Below are positions 4,745 through 41,361 of a DNA stretch of 64,000 nt, piece after piece. A program made the translations under genes and the position numbers. Location of the stretch: positions 89,528 to 153,527 of the forward strand of contig JAYNQW010000004.1 in assembly GCA_038114465.1 (NCBI GenBank), written 5' to 3'. Position 1 is the stretch's first letter, and each line of letters opens with the position of its first letter. Origin of the DNA: Rhodospirillaceae bacterium. GTDB lineage: Bacteria > Pseudomonadota > Alphaproteobacteria > Rhodospirillales > CALINB01. The notes under the pieces were generated by a model that did no database searches, was not told the DNA's origin, and saw nothing but the letters and a program-made list of their open reading frames with translations.

Positions 4745-4961
4745 AAATTTTTTGGAAGCCGATTAAGCATAATGATTAGGAATATAGGTGAAGGTATAGA
4801 ACCAGTCTGTTATTTTAAAAATGAAGAATTTTCTGTTCTCCGAGCAAATCAGCACACTGCCAATGCTCAAAACTTAAAAATATCAATTACTTCGGGGCTA
4901 TGCGAACCCGGTCCTGTTTATGGTACAGTGTTTTGGATAAGATAATTTGGACGGTACGATA

Positions 4962-5303
4962 ATGGCGCGTGGAGAAAACACACCCCCACCCCGGTATCAC
5001 GATCTTGGAGGACGCATGGCAGGTGCTATCGAAAAAACGGACCATATTCTCGAACCCTGGGAAAAGCGCGTCGATGTCCTGCGCAATCTTTTAGGGGATA
5101 AAACACGCCAAGTCCTAACAACAGACGAACTTCGCAACGCCATCGAAAACCTTGGCGAAAAAGCATACGATGATCATAGCTATTACGAACGTTGGATGGC
5201 GGCCTTGATGAATATTTTAAAAGATAAAGGTATGTTGACGCAGGACGAAATCGATCAACGCATGGCCGATATCCGTAGCCGCCTTGGTTTGGAGGAAGCA
5301 TAA
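4962..5303 (+). CDS. Nitrile hydratase beta-subunit N-terminal-half-like protein, copy 1
   Basis: 113 aa from the ATG at 4962 (the ORF track begins at a TTG at 4947). PPPRYHDLGG start, TTDELR and SYYERWMAAL resemble the first half of NHase beta. The stop overlaps the next start (TAATG). Confidence 0.75.
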   Translation: MARGENTPPPRYHDLGGRMAGAIEKTDHILEPWEKRVDVLRNLLGDKTRQVLTTDELRNAIENLGEKAYDDHSYYERWMAALMNILKDKGMLTQDEIDQRMADIRSRLGLEEA

Positions 5304-5650
5304 TGCCGAACCGCCCGCCACCACGTTATCACGATCTCGGCGGCCAAGATGCCGGACCGATTGAAATGGAAGAACACACCATCAAACCTTGGGTGCGCCG
5401 TTCCGATGCAGTCAAAAGCTTGCTATCCGATAAAAAGCGGCGTTTTTTAACAACTGACGAAACTCGCCACGAACTTGAAACCATGGGCGAAAACTTATAC
5501 TTCGGCTTGGAGTATGGCGAGCGGCGAATGATTGCGCTGATGAATGTCCTCACGAACAAAGGACTTCTAAGCCAAGAAGAGATCGATCAAAAAATTGAAG
5601 AAATATACGCACGCCTTGGTATCGAAAAGAAAATCGAGAAAAGCGCATGA
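5303..5650 (+). CDS. Nitrile hydratase beta-subunit N-terminal-half-like protein, copy 2 (possible beta-like accessory/activator)
   Basis: 115 aa. Paralog of copy 1 (RPPPRYHDLGG, TTDETR, EYGERRMIAL). It is translationally coupled on both sides (TAATG and ATGA overlaps). Confidence 0.7.
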   Translation: MPNRPPPRYHDLGGQDAGPIEMEEHTIKPWVRRSDAVKSLLSDKKRRFLTTDETRHELETMGENLYFGLEYGERRMIALMNVLTNKGLLSQEEIDQKIEEIYARLGIEKKIEKSA

Positions 5651-5931
5651 CAAACCAATTTAGTGTCGGTGATGAAATTATCGTTCGGGAGGCCTTCCCC
5701 CAGGGTCATATCCGCACGCCCCATTACATTCGAGGCAAAGAAGGCGTAATCACGGAAGTCCTCGGCGAGTACAACAACCCCGAAGAACTGGCCAAAGGCA
5801 TCAGAGATGCCCCGAAGAAAACCCTCTACCGGGTAAGGTTTGCACAAAAAACCGCTTGGCCGGATTACGATGGCCCTGAGAAGGATACGCTCGACCTCGA
5901 CATCTACGAGCATTGGCTCGAGGCAAAATAA
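5647..5931 (+). CDS. Nitrile hydratase beta-subunit C-terminal (SH3-like) half
   Basis: 94 aa. FSVGDEIIVRE, GHIRTPHYIRGKEGVI, LYRVRF and YEHWLE match the C-terminal domain of NHase beta. Confidence 0.75.
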   Translation: MTNQFSVGDEIIVREAFPQGHIRTPHYIRGKEGVITEVLGEYNNPEELAKGIRDAPKKTLYRVRFAQKTAWPDYDGPEKDTLDLDIYEHWLEAK

Positions 5932-18364: not shown

Positions 18365-19156
18365 TTACCAGTCGTTTCTAAGCTCGCGAAGCTTCAAAAA
18401 TACCGTTTTTTCATCAGGATTTTCCGGTAAATCTGGAAATGCCTCGCGCAACTTCTCGATGACACCCGGGCTTTGCAGCCGATAAAAAGTATTCACTTCC
18501 TTTTCCAACGCCAGCGTGGTTACGAGTGCTTCATTGGTATCTTGGCCTTTGATATCTTGCAAAAGCTGTTGGGCCTTTTTGTTATCCGGCTCACGGTCAA
18601 GTGTGAATTGTAAGTTATTCTCGATATAATCATGTCCGGGATAAATTCTTGTATGATCAGGAAGTTTCGCCAATTGATTCACAAAAGTATCATAAAGCGA
18701 TTCCGGATGCCCCCCGCTTTTGCAATGTCCAGCACCCGCATTAAACATTGTATCGCCGCAAATAAGCGCGGGGTCATCAACATGGGCAAACAGGCAAACA
18801 TGACTCATCGTATGGCCTGGCGTGTCTAAGGCTTCCAGCTCGACAGATTTTCCGATCTTAATGACATCCCCTGCCTTAAGGCCACGTGATATATCGGGAA
18901 TCTTATCTTTGGCATTTTCATGAGCCAGCAATGATGCCCCCGTTGCTTTCATCATATCGGCGTTACCGCCTGTGTGATCGCCATGCTCATGCGTATTCAA
19001 TATTTGGGTAACGTCCCAACCTTTTTCCTTCGCCAAAGACAGGCACATTTCATGCTCAAGGGGATCAACCGCCAGGGCCTCTCCTGTTTCGGGACACACA
19101 ATCAAATAATTAAAATTCCGCCAGTTATTTCCGGTCCAAATTTGTTCAATGATCAT
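18365..19156 (-). CDS. gloB: Hydroxyacylglutathione hydrolase (glyoxalase II, MBL fold)
   Basis: 263 aa from the ATG at 19156. THEHGDHTGG metal motif. Its stop codon directly abuts the maeB stop. Confidence 0.8.
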   Translation of the reverse strand: MIIEQIWTGNNWRNFNYLIVCPETGEALAVDPLEHEMCLSLAKEKGWDVTQILNTHEHGDHTGGNADMMKATGASLLAHENAKDKIPDISRGLKAGDVIKIGKSVELEALDTPGHTMSHVCLFAHVDDPALICGDTMFNAGAGHCKSGGHPESLYDTFVNQLAKLPDHTRIYPGHDYIENNLQFTLDREPDNKKAQQLLQDIKGQDTNEALVTTLALEKEVNTFYRLQSPGVIEKLREAFPDLPENPDEKTVFLKLRELRNDW

Positions 19157-19261: not shown

Positions 19262-20578
19262 TTACCGCTCGAGCATCGCCTTGTTGAATGAGCGTAAAAA
19301 CGGATCCAGTAAGTATTCCAATACCGTCCGTTTGCCAGTCTGAATGTTTGTTGTGACTTGCATACCGGGGAACAGTTGATACTTTAAATTCCCTCGCCTG
19401 AAATGGTCGCTTTTGGTTTCAATGCGGACCTTATAAAAAGGCTGGCCTTCCTCGGAAACCAGTGTATCCGGGCTGACTTGGACAACCTGCCCTGAAAGAT
19501 TGCCGTATCGCATGGCGTCGGCCGAAGCCAGCATCACCAGAGCCTGCTAGCCTTTACGCACATATCCAATATCTTGCGTCGGCAGCTTCGCTTCGATGAT
19601 CAGACGATCACCTGCCGGCACAATATCTACAACCGTAAATCCCGGTTTAAGGCCCCCCCCGACTGTCACCACATACAGTGTTTTCACCACACCATCGACA
19701 GGCGAACGCAGAACGGTTCGTTTCAGGTTATCTTCAAATTTTTGAATGCGCTGTAATAACTCATTGTAATTCAGCCGCGCTTCTTCGAGTTTTTTGCCCG
19801 TCTCAACAGCATGCTCGCTTTCGACGTTATCAAGCTTCGTCTGAGCTTCGTTCAAGGCAGATTTATTCCGTTCTAAAGTGGCAACATCTTCTTCAATTTT
19901 ACCCTGCATCTTGCTTCGGTCACGAAGCAGGTTCAAATGATTATAACGGTTTGTTAAATCATCTTTCAGCAAATCTTCGCTGATTTTAATTTGTTCGTTT
20001 AATAGCGACAAGCTGCGCCGTTGGTTTTTGATTCGTGCCGTTGTCTCTTTAATGTTTTGCCGCCGTTGTAAAACAACCTCTTTTTGACTGACGATATCGC
20101 TCTGGCGTTGACGTTTTCGTTTAGCGAATTGTTCTTTCGCCTGTTTCACGAGCAGGGGCTGACTTTTAGAAAGATCGTCGGGATATACCGGCTCTTTCAG
20201 CCCCGCCGCCTCGGCTTCCAACGATGCAATCGTCACTTGCAAAGAATTAAGTCGAACTCGCAGCTCACCAACGCCTGCCCCACTTGCCGTTGGCTCCAAT
20301 GTGATCAACGGCTGGCCTTTTTTTACGTGATCGCCTTCTCGAACGGCAATCTTTCGAACGATGCCGCCTTCGAGGTGCTGAATACTTTTTACCTGCGTCG
20401 AGGGAATGACCTCGCCGGTCGCCATACTGACGATATCAAGCTTTCCAATGGAGGCCCAAATAAAGAAGGATAAGCATAAAGCTACGCACAATCCCAAAAA
20501 TATATGGGTTGTTTTCGTGACATCATCTTCTTGGTCTTGAGCGGATGCCTGAATTTTTAATGATGGGTGGTCGTTCAT
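19262..20578 (-). pseudogene. HlyD-family type I secretion membrane-fusion protein interrupted by an in-frame TAG
   Basis: The 343-aa and 91-aa ORFs are in the same frame, separated by a single amber codon at 19547..19549 (...DIGYVRKG*QALVMLASADAMRYGNLSGQVVQV...). The joined product has the HlyD N-terminal TM, coiled coil and C-terminal LEYLLDPF ending. Confidence 0.8.
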
Positions 20579-22301
20579 TGTGCTGCTTCACCTGTACCGG
20601 GCTTGGCGGCTCCCGCCGCCGTCGGTTGTCCGGCTGTGGAGCCGGGTTCATTCTTGGGAGCATAATGGACTTTCGGAACGGGTTTACTATTAAGGTCAAT
20701 CGTTCCATGAGCCCCTTTTAATATTTTTGGATCATGTGTAATGGCGATAATGGTGTGCTTGCGCCGTGCTAGTTCGTTCATAACACCGTACAAGGCTGAA
20801 CAACCGTCTTGATCCAACCCCTCGGTAGGCTCATCCATGACAGCCAGGCGGCCACCCGTTGACAGGCCCCTGGCCAGCGCCAAACGCCGGCGAATACCAA
20901 GCGATAAATGACGCCCATCATGGGTAATGGGCGCTTCAAACCCTTTTTCGCTCTCATCAATAAAATGACGGAGTCCTGCCAAATCGATTACACGGTTCAA
21001 ACCGGCATTATCAATATCCGGATTGGCCACCCGAATATTTTCTTCGATGGTTGCATTTAAAAACGTGGGTTCCTGCGGAAGATAAATCACTTGCCGGCGC
21101 CACCATTCCGGCGTCACCTGGCGCAGCTCCAGGCCGTCGACCAGTATTTGCCCGCGTGTAGGCTCTAACAGCCCAACCAAGAGCCGGGCCAAGGTTGTTT
21201 TTCCGGTACCGTTTGAACCATTCACCACTAAAATTGCGCCGGGCTTTAAGTCGACCGTAAGCGATTCAAACAAAGGGTTGTTCGTGCTGGGATAAGCAAA
21301 TGACAAATCCCGTAATTCTAATGCGCCTTGATATTCGGCTTTAACCGAACCGCTGACAGGTTCCAAAGGAACACGGGAAAATTCAGCCAGCAAAGACAAG
21401 GACCGCTGTGCCTTAGCGAAAGTTTCACCGAGTTGAGACAATCGTGATATTGGCTGCAAAGCCCGCGCAGCTAAAATATTTGCACCGATCATCGCACCGA
21501 TATCCAATTTGCCTTGGACGACCAATGTCGCACCGACGGCAATTACGGCGACGCTCATCAATGCTGTCGCGGACTGGGTCACCGATTGAATGAGGCCCTG
21601 GCGCATGGCGATGTGCTGGCGCAAGCCTTGAGTGCGCTGTAGTTGTTTTTCCCAGGCTTGACGCAAAAATGAGCCGGCATTGAAAGCGCGGACAGTTTCA
21701 AACTCACGATTGGCCGTACTGACTAAACCGCTCGCTGAACCTGACGCTTCAATCAGGGCATCCGTCCCACTGCGCAATGAAGCCGCCATAACGGCACCAA
21801 AAATGAAGACACCGGCCAAAAAGATGATCACGATCCATGCAATTAGAGGGCTTAAAAAAAATAATGCGCCGACAAAGAGCAGAGAGAATGGAACATCAAG
21901 AACAACCGAAATATTCGCCGGCGCATAGGCCGTTTCGACAGCGGTCGCGCCATTAACGATTTCACGGCGAATGCCTTCAGGAATCCGTTGCAAGGCGACA
22001 GGCTTCGCTTGCGTCAGCACATGAAATCCGGAAATAGCAGCTTTTTGATCCGGGCTTTTACTTATTCCACGCGCCAGGCGCATGCGAAGTTGCCGGAAAA
22101 AAACTCCATGACCACGGCGATTAGAACGCCGGTTGTCAACGTGACCAATGTGGCGTTAACGCCATGTGCAACGTAACGGTTTAGAACTTGGATGACGAAT
22201 AACGGAGTCGCCAATGCCAATAGGTTTGCAAACACAGAAGCTATCAGAATTTCCGTCGCAATGACCGGATGGCTAAAAAGACGTTGATATAATTCCTTCA
22301 T
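20575..22301 (-). pseudogene. Type I secretion ABC transporter (PrtD/HasD-like, no C39 domain) with a frameshift
   Basis: The 79-aa N-terminal TM piece (22062..22301) and the 502-aa body (Walker A GSNGTGKT, signature LSLGIRRRL, Walker B LAVMDEP) are in different frames. Removing one base from the A7 run at 22097..22103 (T7 on the coding strand) joins them as ...VMEFFRQLRMRLARG... Confidence 0.8.
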
Positions 22302-22349
22302 TATTCGCTTTTCAAAAATTCTATTTGATCGCCGTTAAAAAAAACGTAT

Positions 22350-23024
22350 TTATTCTTCAAGCCACATCCGAATGAGATTGCCATAAACTTTTAACAGCAA
22401 GCCTTCTTCTTCTGATCCTGGATGCTTCTTGGTAATCATTTCACATGCTTTATTCATCTCAAATAACATTTGCCGGTGTGACACATCCCTAATCATACTT
22501 TGAATCCAGACGACGGAAGCAATTCGAACGCCGCTCGTCACTTTCTTAACTGTATGAAGTGTATTTGCCGGATAAACGATCGCATCACCCATTGGTAGCT
22601 TAAGCTCAGCATCGCCGACATCGGTTTTGACAAATAATTCACCCCCCTCATAACTTTCAGGGTCACTCAACAATACTGACACCGCGATATCGGAGCGCAC
22701 CATCGGGTCACTGCCCATGATGGGATTATCCGTATGAAAGCCGTAATACATGCCGGGTTCGTGACGGTTCACAATAGGCCGAGTCATTTTTGCCGGCATG
22801 CTAACAGCATTAACAGCCTCGCTATTCCAAAGCGCATCGAGAATCATTTTTTGCAATTCAGAAAATGACGCGGTCTTTTGAGCATCAACATGAAGGTTGT
22901 TTTTTACAAATTGCGCAGAAGGACCGGCCGTCTTCTTACCTTCGATGTATTTCGCACCGTCGATAATTTCTTTTGCTTTTTTTAGCTGCTCTTGATTGAG
23001 TAATTTTTGAACATGCAAAAACAT
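22350..23024 (-). CDS. PKHD-type Fe(II)/2-oxoglutarate hydroxylase (PiuC/YbiX-like), intact
   Basis: 224 aa. YYGFHTDNP (H-x-D) and YPANTLHTV distal His. It lies inside the T1SS operon, between the OMP and ABC genes. Confidence 0.75.
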   Translation of the reverse strand: MFLHVQKLLNQEQLKKAKEIIDGAKYIEGKKTAGPSAQFVKNNLHVDAQKTASFSELQKMILDALWNSEAVNAVSMPAKMTRPIVNRHEPGMYYGFHTDNPIMGSDPMVRSDIAVSVLLSDPESYEGGELFVKTDVGDAELKLPMGDAIVYPANTLHTVKKVTSGVRIASVVWIQSMIRDVSHRQMLFEMNKACEMITKKHPGSEEEGLLLKVYGNLIRMWLEE

Positions 23025-23117
23025 CTTTGGCTCCGAGCTGTAACGCGTTAACGGCTCCTGATTATAAGGGCTTTATAAGTAAACAAAGCGGATACAGTGT
23101 GACAAATTAATTCCGCA

Positions 23118-24447
23118 CTATTGTGCCGGTTTCGCAGGCCGCATAACTGCCTTAGCTGCCAATTTGCCCATGACAGCAAGAAGCGTAAACGCAGCAATAT
23201 CAACATCCCGCTCGGCCGACGCGGCATCACTCTCCGCGTTTACGAGGTTTGTCTCGCCGTTTAGTACATCCAACAAAGACCGCTTGCCCAATTTACGTTC
23301 TTTGCGAGCTAAGGTTAAAAATTCCGCCGCAATATTTGCCTGATTTCGCAATAACATGGCATTTTCACGTGCTGTATTTAAATTATCCCATGCATCACGA
23401 ACCTGTTGTTCAACTTTCCCCTTTGCATCGACATAACGGCCGGTCGCTGAATCAGCGCCTCTTTTTGATGCCCGAAGCGAATTTACGGCCGTAAAGCCGA
23501 GATTGAAGGGGTAAATAAATTGCACCATGCTGAGAAAGTCTTGTTCCCCACCCTAAAGTACCGCCGACATCCTTAGCAACTTTTGACTGCAATACTGCTT
23601 GAAACCGGGGGAAAAATTCATTTGCCCGCGTTAGATTGACATCTTCTTTCGAAATCAAGCTGGCAAAATGCGCGGCTTGCAGTTGCGGATTATGATCCAA
23701 TGCAATTGCAATAGCTTCCTTAATGCTTGAAGGCAACATATCACCGGGGAAGGCCGGTTTTACGAGTCCTTGATAACCAGGCGGTTCGGATTCAAAAACT
23801 TCCCGGTAGGCGTTGCGGGCAACCTTAAGATCACCATTGGCACGAACGCGGCGGGCTTGAGCACCGGCTAGCTGAACCTTCGCCTGCAAGACATCTGTCG
23901 ACAGCCCAGCGCCGCGTTTGACAAGGGCGTCTTCAAGTTCTGATTGCTTTTTGATGTTCTGTTCAGATTTCTGTGAAAACGAAAGAACATCATACGTACG
24001 GATCATATTGAGGTAAGCCGTAACGGATTGCAGTAACCGGTTTTGAATGGCTGCTGACAAGTTTGCGTTGGCTTGATCCATCGTCAAGCTCGCGGTGCAC
24101 ACTTGAGCATTCGTTGAGCCGAAATCCCATAAAAGCTGTGTAATGCTGAGATCTAATTGGCGGGTCGGCGCACGCGTATCAGCGCCGGGCTGAATTTGGC
24201 GTTCGTAGCCATATTGTGCATCGACATTTAACTGCGGGAACCAACCACCTAAAGCGACACGCGTCCGCTCACGCGCGGCGACCATGTCGGCTCTGGCAGC
24301 GTTGACCAAGTCATCTTTCTTCAAAAGACCCGGCACAAGTTCAGACAACGGTTTCGCCTGCGCAGAAACGCTTAAAAAAATTAAAGCTAAACCGGTTGCC
24401 AGCAAGCTTCGGTAGAAACTCGCTAAACCATTGGTAAATGTGGACAT
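23118..24447 (-). pseudogene. TolC-family type I secretion outer-membrane protein with a frameshift
   Basis: The N-terminal 331-aa ORF has a signal peptide (...LSVSAQA) and TolC repeats. The C-terminal 136-aa ORF is in another frame. TolC-like sequence switches frame near the G/C runs at about 23540..23556 (GGGTGGGG on the coding strand). Confidence 0.75.
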
Positions 24448-24702: not shown

Positions 24703-25719
24703 TTATAGCGTTCCCCATAATTGCGAATCGCGGTCTTCATCGCGCCAGACACCGGCTTCTTTACGCTCCTGGCGCCGCTTCGCGTGCCATCCTTTATAGG
24801 GCACATAATTGGGGTTCGACGGGGTATCGCTTTCAAGCATTTGCCGCGCAAGTTTCTTCGAGATCGGTTTGGGATTATCGCGCACGGAATAACCCCATCC
24901 TTTTAACAACGGACCAACAACGGCCTCTAAGGCTTCGCAATCACGGTCAGAAAGCCGTGTCTTATACATTTCACAATAATCGGTCGTAATCGGCTTCAAA
25001 ATGCTTGCGTGCAATGCATCGCCCCCACCCCAGTTTTTGGCCGAGTCCGACTGATGATGGTTCAGCATTTGCGGCGAATACTCTTCGCCAAGGAATTCAC
25101 AGAGCTTTCTTAATTCCTCTTCCGGCGCAGCACACAATTTTTCATAATGAATTTCATAATAAGAATTTGAATCCAGTTCCGCGCCTGATTCTTTAGCCGC
25201 CGAAACAAACATTTCCCACATTTGAGCGCCCGAATAAAGCGAGTAAGGCCAAAGCCGCGAGTCCGCAATATCAATTGCCATGTCCCGGCCATCTCGAATG
25301 ATATGTACAAACTGAGCGTCGGGGTAATCAGACTTAATCTCCTCCATCCAAAAACAGTTGCGAGGCGTCTTTTCACCCCAACGGGATTTTCCTGTGTCAC
25401 GCGCGTACTTACGGTGCAAAGCATCATAAAGCCCGGCAAACGATGGATCGGCCGATTCTTCAACCATTTCATCGGCCGATAACTGAGACGTCCAATCTTT
25501 GATGGATGGTGCCGCGAGAATATCTTCCGCCAGTGCTTTTAAATTAGCCTTATTGTTTAAATCGCCGTAGCTATAAAGATAAGGCCTCACCATTTCATAA
25601 AGCCATGCTGGCGACGGGACACCGATTCGCGGATGCGCATCCAAGATCAGCCGCATGAGCGTTGAGCCCGACCGGGGGGCACTCACAACAAAGATAGGTT
25701 TTTCACCAGTTACGGGCAT
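24703..25719 (-). CDS. Sulfotransferase family protein
   Basis: 338 aa from the ATG at 25719. PAPS 5'-phosphosulfate-binding loop VVSAPRSGSTLMRLILD. Confidence 0.75.
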   Translation of the reverse strand: MPVTGEKPIFVVSAPRSGSTLMRLILDAHPRIGVPSPAWLYEMVRPYLYSYGDLNNKANLKALAEDILAAPSIKDWTSQLSADEMVEESADPSFAGLYDALHRKYARDTGKSRWGEKTPRNCFWMEEIKSDYPDAQFVHIIRDGRDMAIDIADSRLWPYSLYSGAQMWEMFVSAAKESGAELDSNSYYEIHYEKLCAAPEEELRKLCEFLGEEYSPQMLNHHQSDSAKNWGGGDALHASILKPITTDYCEMYKTRLSDRDCEALEAVVGPLLKGWGYSVRDNPKPISKKLARQMLESDTPSNPNYVPYKGWHAKRRQERKEAGVWRDEDRDSQLWGTL

Positions 25720-39963: not shown

Positions 39964-40422
39964 CTAGCTGTCTTCGCCGGCGATAAAAGCACCGCTTTTT
40001 TTACCGTCGACGGCATCGCCGGCAACGTAATAACCAACATCTTTAGCTGCAAAATACACCGCATCTTCTTCATCGGTTGTCACGACGTAATGCTCTTCAT
40101 TCGCCGGGATATGGATCAGCTGACCGGGACCCGCGATTCCTTCCTTATCGCCGACCTTGTATTTTACTTTTCCCTTCAATACGAGATTGAATTGCTCATT
40201 AGCATGGGTATGCAAACGAGATCCCGTTCCTTTCGGTTTATTAACAAGAACGACTTGAAGCTTCTTGCCGCGAACGGCTGCACCGATTGAAGAAGAATAA
40301 TGAGGACCAATCATAAACTGATCCATGTCGCCCATATTGAACAGGCAATTATCGGCACTGGCCCGAGTTACCAGCTTGTCGGTTTCTTCGTGAATGTTTT
40401 CATATTTTTCTTCGTCACTCAT
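39964..40422 (-). CDS. Cupin_2 (KdgF-like) protein, tandem copy 3 (most divergent)
   Basis: 152 aa. GTGSRLHTHANEQFNLVLKG and GQLIHIPANEEH. Confidence 0.8.
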   Translation of the reverse strand: MSDEEKYENIHEETDKLVTRASADNCLFNMGDMDQFMIGPHYSSSIGAAVRGKKLQVVLVNKPKGTGSRLHTHANEQFNLVLKGKVKYKVGDKEGIAGPGQLIHIPANEEHYVVTTDEEDAVYFAAKDVGYYVAGDAVDGKKSGAFIAGEDS

Positions 40423-40437
40423 TGTTTGCCTCCCAAT

Positions 40438-40881
40438 TTAATCCGATTTAACACCGGGTGCGACATACGCACCGGTGTTCTTGCCGTCAACGGGATCGCC
40501 ATACATTAAATGCGACGTATCCTTCACGGCGTAATATTCAACATCGTTATCTTCCGCCGCGACCGTGTAATGAGGCGTATCGGCCGGAATATAAATTAAG
40601 GTACCAGGCGTCGCGACAGATTCCACATCACCGACGCGAACCTTCAGTTTTCCTTTTAATACGTAATTAAACTGCTCATTCGGATGGGTATGCAGTCTCG
40701 AACCGGTTCCCGGTTTTTTACGCACAACTGCAACTTGCACTTTGTTGCCTTCGACGATGCCGCCGCGGGCGGATGAGTAGTGTTCTCCGATCCCGAACTC
40801 TTCAAGATTGAAGAGATCGAAGAAACAGTTGCCATTCCCGGCTTTGTGAGAATGTTGATTAATTTTTTTATCTTCAGCCAT
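40438..40881 (-). CDS. Cupin_2 (KdgF-like) protein, tandem copy 2
   Basis: 147 aa. GTGSRLHTHPNEQFNYVLKG and GTLIYIPADTPH. About three-quarters of residues are identical to copy 1 by eye. Confidence 0.8.
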   Translation of the reverse strand: MAEDKKINQHSHKAGNGNCFFDLFNLEEFGIGEHYSSARGGIVEGNKVQVAVVRKKPGTGSRLHTHPNEQFNYVLKGKLKVRVGDVESVATPGTLIYIPADTPHYTVAAEDNDVEYYAVKDTSHLMYGDPVDGKNTGAYVAPGVKSD

Positions 40882-40923
40882 TGATTACTTACCTCAATCA
40901 TTAAAATGGTCGTTGACTTAGCA

Positions 40924-41361
40924 CTAACCGTCTTTGGGCTCGATATAAGCACCCGTGTTCTTGCCGTCGACCGCTTCGCCATGCATCAAATAAGACGTAT
41001 CTTTAATTGCGTAGTATTCAACATCGCCGTCTTGTGTCGCGACCGTGTAATGAGGAATATTCGCCGGGATATATACCAGCGTCCCCGCCCGGGCTAACCC
41101 TTCGACGTCACCGATCTTTACCTTGAGCGTTCCCTTGAGAACATAATTGAATTGTTCATTCGCATGCGTATGAAGCCGCGAACCTGTTCCCGGTTTTTTC
41201 CGAACGATCGCGACTTGGACCTTATCGCCTTCGACAATCCCGCCACGGCCCGACGAATAATTCTCGCCGATCCCGAATTCTTTAAGATTAAATAAATCGA
41301 AAAAACAATTGCCGTCGCCGGCCTTATAGGAATTTTGGTTGATTTTTTCTTTATCCGCCAT
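40924..41361 (-). CDS. Cupin_2 (KdgF-like) protein, tandem copy 1
   Basis: 145 aa. GTGSRLHTHANEQFNYVLKG and GTLVYIPANIPH. Confidence 0.8.
   Translation of the reverse strand: MADKEKINQNSYKAGDGNCFFDLFNLKEFGIGENYSSGRGGIVEGDKVQVAIVRKKPGTGSRLHTHANEQFNYVLKGTLKVKIGDVEGLARAGTLVYIPANIPHYTVATQDGDVEYYAIKDTSYLMHGEAVDGKNTGAYIEPKDG

What the first reader, a model, noticed from the sequence alone, without database searches (positions are those of the whole stretch)
19262..24447. All three type I secretion genes in one operon are independently disrupted
Seen: (i) the HlyD-family MFP has a single in-frame TAG at 19547-19549, with HlyD-like sequence continuing in the same frame. (ii) The ABC gene changes frame at an A7 run at 22097-22103 (T7 on the coding strand), and deleting one base restores ...VMEFFRQLRMRLARG... 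(iii) The TolC-family gene changes frame near a GGGTGGGG run at about 23540-23556. About 55 other genes in the window are intact, so three lesions of different kinds concentrated in 5 kb point to real pseudogenisation of a secretion system rather than random error. No RTX/GGxGxD substrate gene is visible nearby, which fits loss of the cargo. Alternatives are homopolymer sequencing errors for the two frameshifts, or phase-variable slippage at the T7 tract.
Basis: seen in the sequence. Interest (0 to 1): 0.6.

Follow-up and report, generated by a model that had tools for sequence, protein, structure and literature searches.

The report
Decaying type I secretion gene cluster
A three-part protein-export machine in an uncultured Rhodospirillales bacterium is truly broken in all three genes; this is ordinary gene decay, caught while it is still happening in the natural population.

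Summary
There is a TAG in the HlyD-family adaptor at 19547-19549, a frameshift at the A7/T7 run (22097-22103) in the ABC gene, and a frameshift at about 23554 in the TolC-family gene.

They are not sequencing errors. The same lesions recur in about 20 independently assembled contigs from at least five projects, all 99.8-100% identical to the window.

Two details need correcting.
- The ABC gene needs one base added, not removed. Intact orthologues are 575 aa and read EFFFRQ.
- The TolC lesion is an extra A in TTT-A-GGG, not a slip in the G run.
- An intact 2OG-Fe(II) dioxygenase gene also sits between TolC and ABC.

The lesions vary within the population.
- The ABC tract is T7 on 31 contigs and T9 on 5, and never the in-frame T8.
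- TolC carries two alternative knock-outs.
- HlyD carries at least four, and a few haplotypes are still intact.

Polymorphism in the secretion genes is 19 non-synonymous to 4 synonymous, against 10:10 in flanking genes. Several sister species have their own HlyD lesions.

Verdict: recent, ongoing pseudogenisation. The phenomenon is ordinary but unusually well documented here. Phase variation and programmed frameshifting are unsupported.

The parts
23118..24447 (-). TolC-family outer-membrane channel pseudogene. It is 442 aa once the extra A at 23554 is removed.
   Evidence: Pfam OEP matches both fragments. The repaired protein scores 215.2 bits on TIGR01844, against a cut-off of 225.15. Two MAG haplotypes lack the +A lesion and instead carry CAG>TAG at 23589. 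One of them also lacks a C at 23256.
23554..23554 (-). One-base insertion (A on the coding strand) that shifts the TolC frame.
   Evidence: Present in the window and in 14 of 16 other contigs. Absent from GCA_040264635 and GCA_030836615, whose sequence reads through in one frame.
22350..23024 (-). Intact Fe2+/2-oxoglutarate (PKHD-type) dioxygenase gene lying between TolC and ABC. It is not part of the decay.
   Evidence: NF003974 scores 227.2 bits, above its cut-off of 143. It has no segregating SNPs across 16 contigs.
20575..22301 (-). Pseudogene of a type I secretion-type ABC permease/ATPase. It is 575 aa if the T7 run is restored to T8.
   Evidence: Pfam ABC_membrane and ABC_tran both match. 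The best NCBIfam match is TIGR03375 (LssB type) at 354.7 bits, covering profile positions 142-666 only. Intact 575-aa orthologues are 78-92% identical.
22097..22103 (-). T7 homopolymer (A7 on the plus strand), the site of the ABC frameshift. It is one base short of the in-frame T8.
   Evidence: Sister species have interrupted runs here (TTCTTTTTC, TTCTTCTTT, TTTTTCTTC, TTTTTCTTT) that encode FFF. In the population the T7 product is on 31 contigs and the T9 product on 5. The exact T8-repaired protein is not in the collection.
19262..20578 (-). HlyD-family type I secretion adaptor pseudogene. It is 438 aa if TAG is read as CAG.
   Evidence: The repaired protein scores 394.6 bits on TIGR01843, above its cut-off of 208.65. 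Intact 438-aa alleles exist on 4 contigs of the same population.
19547..19549 (-). In-frame TAG at codon 344 of HlyD, a C>T nonsense mutation of CAG (Gln).
   Evidence: The codon is CAG in ERZ27313074, GCA_030836615 and ERZ27313207, and Gln in the outgroups L011 and L012.
19653..19660 (-). G8 run (C8 on the plus strand) in HlyD, a second hotspot for lesions in other haplotypes.
   Evidence: The outgroup-like allele is G7-TCC (Val) and the window has G8-CC (Gly). ERZ27313074 has G8-TCC, a frameshift giving a 310-aa product. P0137 is a 316-aa frameshift allele at the same run.

Best explanation
The locus is a tripartite type I secretion system: a TolC-family channel, an ABC exporter and a HlyD-family adaptor. 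It is being lost by mutation in an uncultured Rhodospirillales population.

Shown:
- Each gene carries a disabling lesion relative to intact orthologues.
- The lesions are genuine alleles, seen in many independent assemblies.
- Different haplotypes carry different knock-outs of TolC and HlyD.
- Every sampled haplotype has an out-of-frame ABC tract.
- Polymorphism in the three genes is enriched for amino-acid changes, while neighbouring genes, including the dioxygenase embedded in the cluster, stay constrained.

Inferred:
- Synonymous changes turned the FFF codons into an uninterrupted T8 run, which slipped to T7. This was probably the first hit, because it is shared by all lineages.
- With export dead, TolC was then knocked out at least twice and HlyD at least four times.
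- The ultimate cause is probably that the exported protein is no longer needed. In a more distant relative, the homologous exporter sits beside a giant RTX adhesin-like protein.
For: Lesions and their repair:
- Searches show the lesions and how each is repaired.
- Intact orthologues are 575 aa and read EFFFRQ.

Reproducibility:
- Twenty distinct contigs from SRA/Logan, ENA, JGI and two NCBI MAGs are 99.76-100% identical to the window and carry the lesions.

Alternative lesions in other haplotypes:
- TolC: +A at 23554 in most contigs, and CAG>TAG at 23589 in the two MAGs, one of which also has -C at 23256.
- HlyD: TAG344, a G-run insertion, a G-run deletion (P0137), a C-terminal frameshift (P0141), and intact 438-aa alleles.
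- ABC tract: the T7 product is on 31 contigs and the T9 product on 5. The exact T8-repaired protein is not in the collection.

Selection signal:
- Segregating SNPs are 17 non-synonymous plus 2 stop-changing, against 4 synonymous, in the secretion genes. Flanking genes show 10:10 (Fisher p = 0.048).
- Coverage-normalised SNP density is about 2.3 times higher in the secretion genes.
- The window's HlyD carries six derived replacements plus the stop at positions where other haplotypes match the outgroups.
- dN to sister species is similar for secretion genes and flanking genes, so constraint was lost only recently.

Parallel lesions in other species whose ABC gene is intact:
- L127: HlyD CAA>TAA.
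- L130: HlyD +2 nt frameshift.
- L129: HlyD CAG>TAG.

Cargo type:
- In L128, the homologous ABC-HlyD pair lies just downstream of an 8719-aa protein with at least 10 GGxGxD repeats.
Against: - The excess of non-synonymous polymorphism is only marginally significant (p = 0.048) and rests on 43 SNPs.
- The order of events is inferred. The T tract is a hotspot, so T7 could have arisen more than once. Recombination is also evident: sites 19549 and 20274, taken with the outgroup state, fail the four-gamete test.
- Only 64 kb of the genome is visible, so a second intact system or a surviving cargo gene elsewhere cannot be excluded.
- No expression data are available.
- Metagenome contigs are consensus sequences, so a minority T8 allele would go unseen.
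- One of the 'parallel' cases, L011, comes from an assembly with suspicious TAA codons in the same sequence context in two conserved genes. It should be discounted.
Confidence: 0.88

Rival explanations
1. The frameshifts and the stop codon are sequencing or assembly errors in this one record, and the genes are really intact.
For: Two of the three lesions lie in or next to homopolymer-rich sequence: the T7 run and TTTAGGGTGGGG.
Against: The same T7, +A and TAG occur in 13-16 other contigs assembled independently by MEGAHIT, Logan, JGI and MAG pipelines from different samples. A C>T nonsense change is not a homopolymer artefact. The other roughly 60 ORFs in the window are clean.
Confidence: 0.01
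2. The T tract in the ABC gene is a phase-variation switch. Slippage toggles the exporter between OFF (T7 or T9) and ON (T8), and the system is still used by part of the population.
For: The tract is length-polymorphic, with the T7 product on 31 contigs and the T9 product on 5. It lies early in the ORF, as contingency tracts do.
Against: - No T8 allele appears among the 36 contigs on record.
- The only 575-aa cluster mate belongs to another species and has an interrupted tract.
- Every haplotype that could be scored also has a dead TolC, and most have a dead HlyD, through lesions that slippage cannot reverse.
- Sister species have interrupted runs at this site, so the tract is a recent accident and not a conserved switch.
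Confidence: 0.03
3. The ABC gene is decoded by programmed -1 ribosomal frameshifting or by transcriptional slippage on the U7/T7 run, so a full-length exporter is still made.
For: A -1 slip on GAG UUU UUU UCC would give EFFFRQ, exactly the ancestral peptide (derived). Low-level slippage on runs of 7 is known in bacteria (general knowledge; reviewed in PMC5009743, found but not read here).
Against: - The heptamer is not in the canonical X XXY YYZ phase.
- The 67 nt downstream fold no better than shuffled sequence (z = 0.14).
- Orthologues encode the protein in a single frame.
- The T9 allele would need the opposite shift.
- TolC and HlyD are broken at sites that are not slippery.
- At most this would give a trace of product with no working partners.
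Confidence: 0.02
4. Loss is adaptive, not neutral. Inactivating alleles were favoured, for example to escape a phage or toxin that uses the TolC-type channel, or to save the cost of exporting a giant adhesin. This would explain the many independent knock-outs here and in sister species.
For: - There are at least nine independent disabling events in 4.4 kb within a population that is 99.8-100% identical.
- HlyD is hit independently in L127, L130 and L129.
- All seven HlyD differences that distinguish the window haplotype are non-synonymous or nonsense.
Against: - The numbers fit neutral decay once the system is dead. pN/pS is about 1, as expected without constraint.
- SNP density is raised about 2.3-fold.
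- Four of the indels sit at the T8 and G7-8 hotspots.
- No test here separates positive selection from relaxed selection.
- This is a variant of the main explanation, not a contradiction of it.
Confidence: 0.15

Closest known systems
Tripartite type I secretion systems for RTX proteins and giant adhesins (HlyB-HlyD-TolC, LapB-LapC-LapE, LssB-LssD)
   Same: The three components are the same: an ABC permease/ATPase, a HlyD-family adaptor (TIGR01843 met) and a TolC-family channel. ABC and adaptor overlap by 4 bp, as in classical operons. JGI labels homologues as LapB. A 57%-identical ABC-adaptor pair in a Thalassospiraceae genome lies next to an 8719-aa RTX-repeat protein.
   Different: - The ABC protein lacks the N-terminal C39-like domain of HlyB, LapB and LssB. 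It aligns to LssB profile positions 142-666 only and falls below every curated subfamily cut-off.
- No cargo gene is adjacent.
- An unrelated dioxygenase gene is inserted between the TolC and ABC genes.
- All three genes are inactivated here.
Pseudogenised secretion and adhesin loci in niche-restricted bacteria, such as the Bordetella species and Salmonella Gallinarum/Pullorum lineages surveyed in PMC5045587 and PMC6449608 (both surfaced; abstracts only, not read in full)
   Same: A multi-gene accessory system accumulates frameshifts and nonsense codons while the surrounding core genes stay intact.
   Different: This organism is an uncultured environmental alphaproteobacterium with an otherwise compact, pseudogene-poor window. 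It is not a host-restricted pathogen undergoing genome-wide decay. The decay is also seen as standing polymorphism in metagenomes.
Homopolymer contingency loci (phase-variable genes of Neisseria, Haemophilus, Campylobacter; general knowledge)
   Same: There is a mononucleotide run inside the 5' part of an ORF, and its length differs between strains (T7 and T9).
   Different: No in-frame allele is observed. The tract is not conserved in relatives. The partner genes carry irreversible lesions.

Membership tests
Type I secretion system (ABC + MFP + OMP) | HlyD-family type I secretion adaptor | tested here: met
   The repaired 438-aa protein scores 394.6 bits on TIGR01843 (cut-off 208.65), aligned over profile positions 5-422 of 422. 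Pfam HlyD_3 and Biotin_lipoyl_2 also match.
Type I secretion system (ABC + MFP + OMP) | TolC-family outer-membrane channel | tested here: inconclusive
   The repaired 442-aa protein scores 215.2 bits on TIGR01844, just under the 225.15 cut-off. Pfam OEP matches both halves above threshold.
Type I secretion system (ABC + MFP + OMP) | ABC permease/ATPase belonging to a curated T1SS subfamily (LssB, HlyB or PrtD) | tested here: not met
   The best three NCBIfam hits are all T1SS subfamilies, but all fall below their cut-offs: LssB 354.7 against 693.1, HlyB 272.6 against 725.55, PrtD 259.5 against 510.15. The fold type (ABC_membrane plus ABC_tran) is met. It works like a T1SS exporter but belongs to none of the curated subfamilies.
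Type I secretion system (ABC + MFP + OMP) | N-terminal C39 peptidase or C39-like domain (HlyB, LapB and LssB classes) | tested here: not met
   The alignment to the LssB and HlyB profiles starts at profile positions 141-142, and the protein begins directly with the membrane domain.
Type I secretion system (ABC + MFP + OMP) | Identifiable cargo with RTX (GGxGxD) repeats or a C-terminal secretion signal | tested here: not met
   There is no GGxGxD array in any frame of the 64-kb window, only 3 isolated chance matches. None was found in L011 either. The rest of the genome could not be tested. A distant homologue has such a cargo adjacent.
Pseudogene (decaying gene) | Reading frame disrupted relative to intact orthologues | tested here: met
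   Intact orthologues are ABC 575 aa, HlyD 438 aa and TolC 423 aa in L012 and other loci. The window has 79+502, 343+91 and 331+136 aa fragments.
Pseudogene (decaying gene) | Lesions reproducible in independent data | tested here: met
   Twenty distinct contigs from at least five projects were examined. Per-site states are tabulated.
Pseudogene (decaying gene) | Relaxed selective constraint | tested here: met
   The ratio is 19 non-synonymous or stop-changing to 4 synonymous in the secretion genes, against 10:10 in flanking genes (Fisher p = 0.048). SNP density is 2.3 times higher. Support is modest because counts are small.
Pseudogene (decaying gene) | No functional product made | not testable with these tools
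   This needs transcript or protein data from the organism.
Phase-variable contingency locus | In-frame (ON) tract length present in the population, with the rest of the system intact | tested here: not met
   The T7 product is on 31 contigs, the T9 product on 5, and none corresponds to T8. TolC is dead in every scorable haplotype.
Programmed -1 ribosomal frameshift | Canonical slippery heptamer in phase, a downstream stimulatory structure, and conservation in orthologues | tested here: not met
   The heptamers are G UUU UUU and U UUU UCC, not X XXY YYZ. The downstream fold has z = 0.14. Orthologues are single-frame with interrupted runs.

The most novel reading that the evidence does not exclude
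The same secretion system is being discarded in parallel in several related Rhodospirillales species. Each has its own lesions, HlyD is usually hit first, and one population has been caught mid-process with many knock-out alleles segregating. If selection drives this and not drift, for example abandonment of a giant-adhesin, surface-attached lifestyle or escape from a TolC-targeting phage, the locus would be a natural example of repeated adaptive gene loss in free-living bacteria, readable directly from metagenomes.
Probability: 0.25. Interest if true: 0.45.

Novelty: new member of a known kind. Interest (0 to 1): 0.27.

Why it matters
On its own this is routine: an accessory secretion system turning into pseudogenes. 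Three things give it some value.
- It is a clean, checkable case in which public metagenomes serve as a second assembly. They rule out sequencing error and also reveal the order and multiplicity of hits: one shared ABC frameshift, then at least two TolC and at least four HlyD knock-outs.
- It shows how a synonymous change that completes a T8 run can create the hotspot that kills a gene.
- Annotators should mark the three genes as pseudogenes. NCBI and JGI currently name the fragments as if they were proteins.

The parallel HlyD lesions in sister species hint at a lineage-wide loss of this export function. That could be tied to lifestyle if whole genomes were examined.

Tried and rejected
- Metagenome scan with the dioxygenase protein. 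The JGI-based collection does not hold this population: one 80% hit, the rest distant YbiX-type homologues.
- Genome scan with the repaired ABC protein. It returned only the 78-79% sister species and distant ABC proteins. It gave the organism label (Rhodospirillales MAGs) but no closer genome.
- dN/dS against sister species. dS is saturated (above 1.4 or undefined), so no branch-specific ratio could be obtained. Only dN could be compared.
- The first SNP classification used a wrong codon phase for the second fragments of ABC and TolC. It was redone with checked frames, and only those numbers are used here.
- L130's apparent TolC split is a scaffold gap of Ns, not a lesion.
- L011's lesions are discounted. 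That assembly has TAA codons in the same TCGTTAAG context in both TolC and a conserved Ser of malic enzyme.
- Promoter and terminator scans gave counts equal to shuffled sequence, so operon boundaries could not be determined.
- Two literature searches found general precedents for pseudogenised secretion loci but nothing on this clade.

Full report
**What is in the sequence**

All relevant genes run on the minus strand. From upstream to downstream they are as follows.
- A sulfotransferase-family gene (25719..24703).
- A TolC/OEP gene in two overlapping frames: 24447..23452 (331 aa) and 23528..23118 (136 aa).
- An intact 224-aa 2OG-Fe(II)/PKHD dioxygenase gene (23024..22350).
- An ABC permease/ATPase gene in two frames: 22301..22062 (79 aa) and 22083..20575 (502 aa).
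- A HlyD-family adaptor gene (20578..19262) interrupted by TAG at 19549-19547.
- A hydroxyacylglutathione-hydrolase-like gene (19156..18365).

Repaired in silico, the adaptor passes the curated HlyD type I secretion model (TIGR01843, 394.6 bits against a cut-off of 208.65). The channel falls just short of the TolC model (215.2 against 225.15). The ABC protein is most like the LssB, HlyB and PrtD type I exporters, but it is below all their cut-offs and lacks their N-terminal C39-like domain.

The A7/T7 run is at 22097-22103 as stated. However, the downstream frame is -1 relative to the upstream frame. The gene is therefore restored by adding one T (T8, giving VMEFFFRQLRMRLARG), not by deleting one. 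Intact orthologues are exactly 575 aa and read (L/M)EFFFRQIRMRLA.

The TolC frameshift is not a slip in the G run. It is one extra A at 23554 (TTT-A-GGGTGGGG). Haplotypes without it read GGTLGGEQDFLSMVQF in one frame.

The three secretion genes are also not contiguous, because the dioxygenase gene sits between TolC and ABC.

**Are the lesions real?**

I looked up three intact neighbouring proteins in public assemblies: the dioxygenase, the hydrolase and the sulfotransferase. This choice is unbiased with respect to the state of the secretion genes. It returned 20 distinct contigs of the same population, 99.76-100% identical over the shared region. They come from several SRA/Logan runs, ENA assemblies, two JGI metagenomes and two NCBI MAGs labelled Rhodospirillaceae or Rhodospirillales bacterium.

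The window's three lesions recur in most of them. Sequencing or assembly error is excluded.

**Polymorphism of the lesions**

- ABC tract. It is T7 in 15 of 16 fetched contigs and T9 in one. In the 15-billion-protein collection, the 79-aa (T7) product is on 31 contigs and the 81-aa (T9) product on 5. The exact T8-repaired 575-aa protein is not in the collection. The only 575-aa cluster mate belongs to another species.
- TolC. The +A allele is in 14 of 16 contigs. The two NCBI MAGs lack it but carry CAG>TAG 35 nt upstream (23589), and one of them also lacks a C at 23256.
- HlyD. TAG344 is in 14 of 17 contigs. The other three have the ancestral CAG. Of those, one has a one-base insertion at the G run (19653-19660) and two are intact.
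- Further HlyD alleles in the protein collection are a G-run deletion (316 aa), a C-terminal frameshift (465 aa) and more intact 438-aa copies.

In total there are at least two independent hits in TolC and at least four in HlyD, with an out-of-frame ABC tract in every haplotype.

**Signature of relaxed constraint**

With frames checked, segregating SNPs in the three genes are 17 non-synonymous, 2 stop-changing and 4 synonymous. In about 15 kb of flanking genes they are 10 and 10 (Fisher p = 0.048). Coverage-normalised SNP density is about 2.3 times higher in the secretion genes, and the embedded dioxygenase gene has no SNP at all.

Polarising with two outgroups shows that the window's HlyD carries six derived amino-acid changes plus the stop, at positions where other haplotypes keep the outgroup state.

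Divergence from sister species is too deep for dS. dN for the secretion genes (0.11-0.19) resembles that of their neighbours (0.08-0.15), so constraint was lost recently.

**How the ABC lesion arose**

Sister species encode FFF with interrupted runs: TTCTTTTTC, TTCTTCTTT, TTTTTCTTC and TTTTTCTTT. In the window's lineage the codons must have become TTTTTTTTC, an uninterrupted T8, which then contracted to T7 and in one sublineage became T9.

T7 is shared by lineages that differ in their TolC and HlyD lesions. The simplest order is therefore ABC first, then TolC, then HlyD. This order is an inference. The tract is a hotspot, and the population recombines: sites 19549 and 20274, taken with the outgroup state, fail the four-gamete test.

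**Alternatives**

- Phase variation. It fails for lack of any in-frame allele, and because the partner genes are broken at sites that slippage cannot reverse.
- Programmed -1 frameshifting or transcriptional slippage. It would regenerate EFFFRQ, but the heptamer is not canonical, the downstream 67 nt fold no better than shuffles (z = 0.14), orthologues are single-frame, and T9 would need the opposite shift.
- Adaptive loss as opposed to neutral loss. This cannot be separated with these data.

**Wider context**

The gene order sulfotransferase-TolC-dioxygenase-ABC-HlyD-hydrolase is conserved in sister species whose ABC proteins are 78-92% identical.

| Locus | ABC identity to window | State of the secretion genes |
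|---|---|---|
| L012/L013 | 78% | All three intact; the dioxygenase gene is frameshifted, the reverse of the window |
| L127 | 92.5% | ABC intact, HlyD CAA>TAA, TolC not covered |
| L130 | 84% | ABC intact, HlyD +2 nt frameshift, TolC not scorable (scaffold gap) |
| L129 | 58% | ABC intact, HlyD CAG>TAG |
| L131, L132 | 59-60% | Intact |
| L011 | 87% | Lesions present, but the assembly looks unreliable |

In a Thalassospiraceae genome (L128), the homologous ABC-adaptor pair follows an 8719-aa protein with at least ten GGxGxD repeats near its C-terminus. This suggests the kind of cargo this exporter family handles.

No such gene is in the window. None is adjacent in the intact orthologous locus either, so its absence nearby does not by itself show cargo loss.

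**Verdict**

The pseudogenisation reading is well supported. The phenomenon is ordinary. What stands out is the quality of the population evidence and the hint of parallel loss across related species.

Noticed in passing
window 22350-23024 (-); L012 9285-9946; L013 1256-1917: The dioxygenase gene embedded in the cluster is intact and invariant in the window's population. In the sister species whose secretion genes are all intact, it is frameshifted (tblastn frames 3 to 2) and much more diverged, in two independent assemblies. The pattern is reciprocal, so the gene is functionally independent of the secretion system.
   Followed up: partly
L127 2272-3585; L130 7511-8868; L129 11683-12984: HlyD is independently broken in three other species whose ABC gene is intact: CAA>TAA, a +2 nt frameshift, and CAG>TAG. 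The two nonsense codons lie three codons apart, in the coiled-coil region rich in Gln, Lys and Arg.
   Followed up: partly
L011 7902-9224, 11725-13055, 14025-16361: This long contig (ctg5977) has a 14-bp tandem duplication in HlyD. It also has TAA codons in TolC and at a conserved Ser of malic enzyme, both within the same TCGTTAAG context. That suggests a systematic assembly or base-calling artefact and not real lesions.
   Followed up: partly
L128 1-9837: In Thalassospiraceae bacterium LMO-SO8, an 8719-aa protein with at least 10 GGxGxD repeats in its last ~900 residues lies directly upstream of a 57%-identical ABC-HlyD pair. It is a plausible model for the missing cargo.
   Followed up: partly
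window 4947-5931 (+): Three short consecutive ORFs match nitrile hydratase beta N-terminal, the N-terminal domain again, and the C-terminal domain. This is a split or duplicated beta-subunit arrangement, not obviously a pseudogene.
   Followed up: no
window 39964-41361 (-): Three tandem paralogous cupin-domain genes of 145-152 aa each.
   Followed up: no
window 32675 (+): One population contig (JGI 3300066022) has a 1-nt deletion in the FAD-binding dehydrogenase gene at this position, which splits its gene call (243 + 346 aa). No other contig shares it.
   Followed up: no
window 19549 and 20274 (-): Alleles at the HlyD stop codon and at G102/D102 occur in three combinations. With the outgroup state this makes all four gametes, indicating recombination (or recurrent mutation) within this near-clonal population.
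   Followed up: no
L011 2140-4828: Compared with the window, the sister species L011 has an ATP-grasp gene and a radical-SAM gene inserted between TctA and NifU.
   Followed up: no
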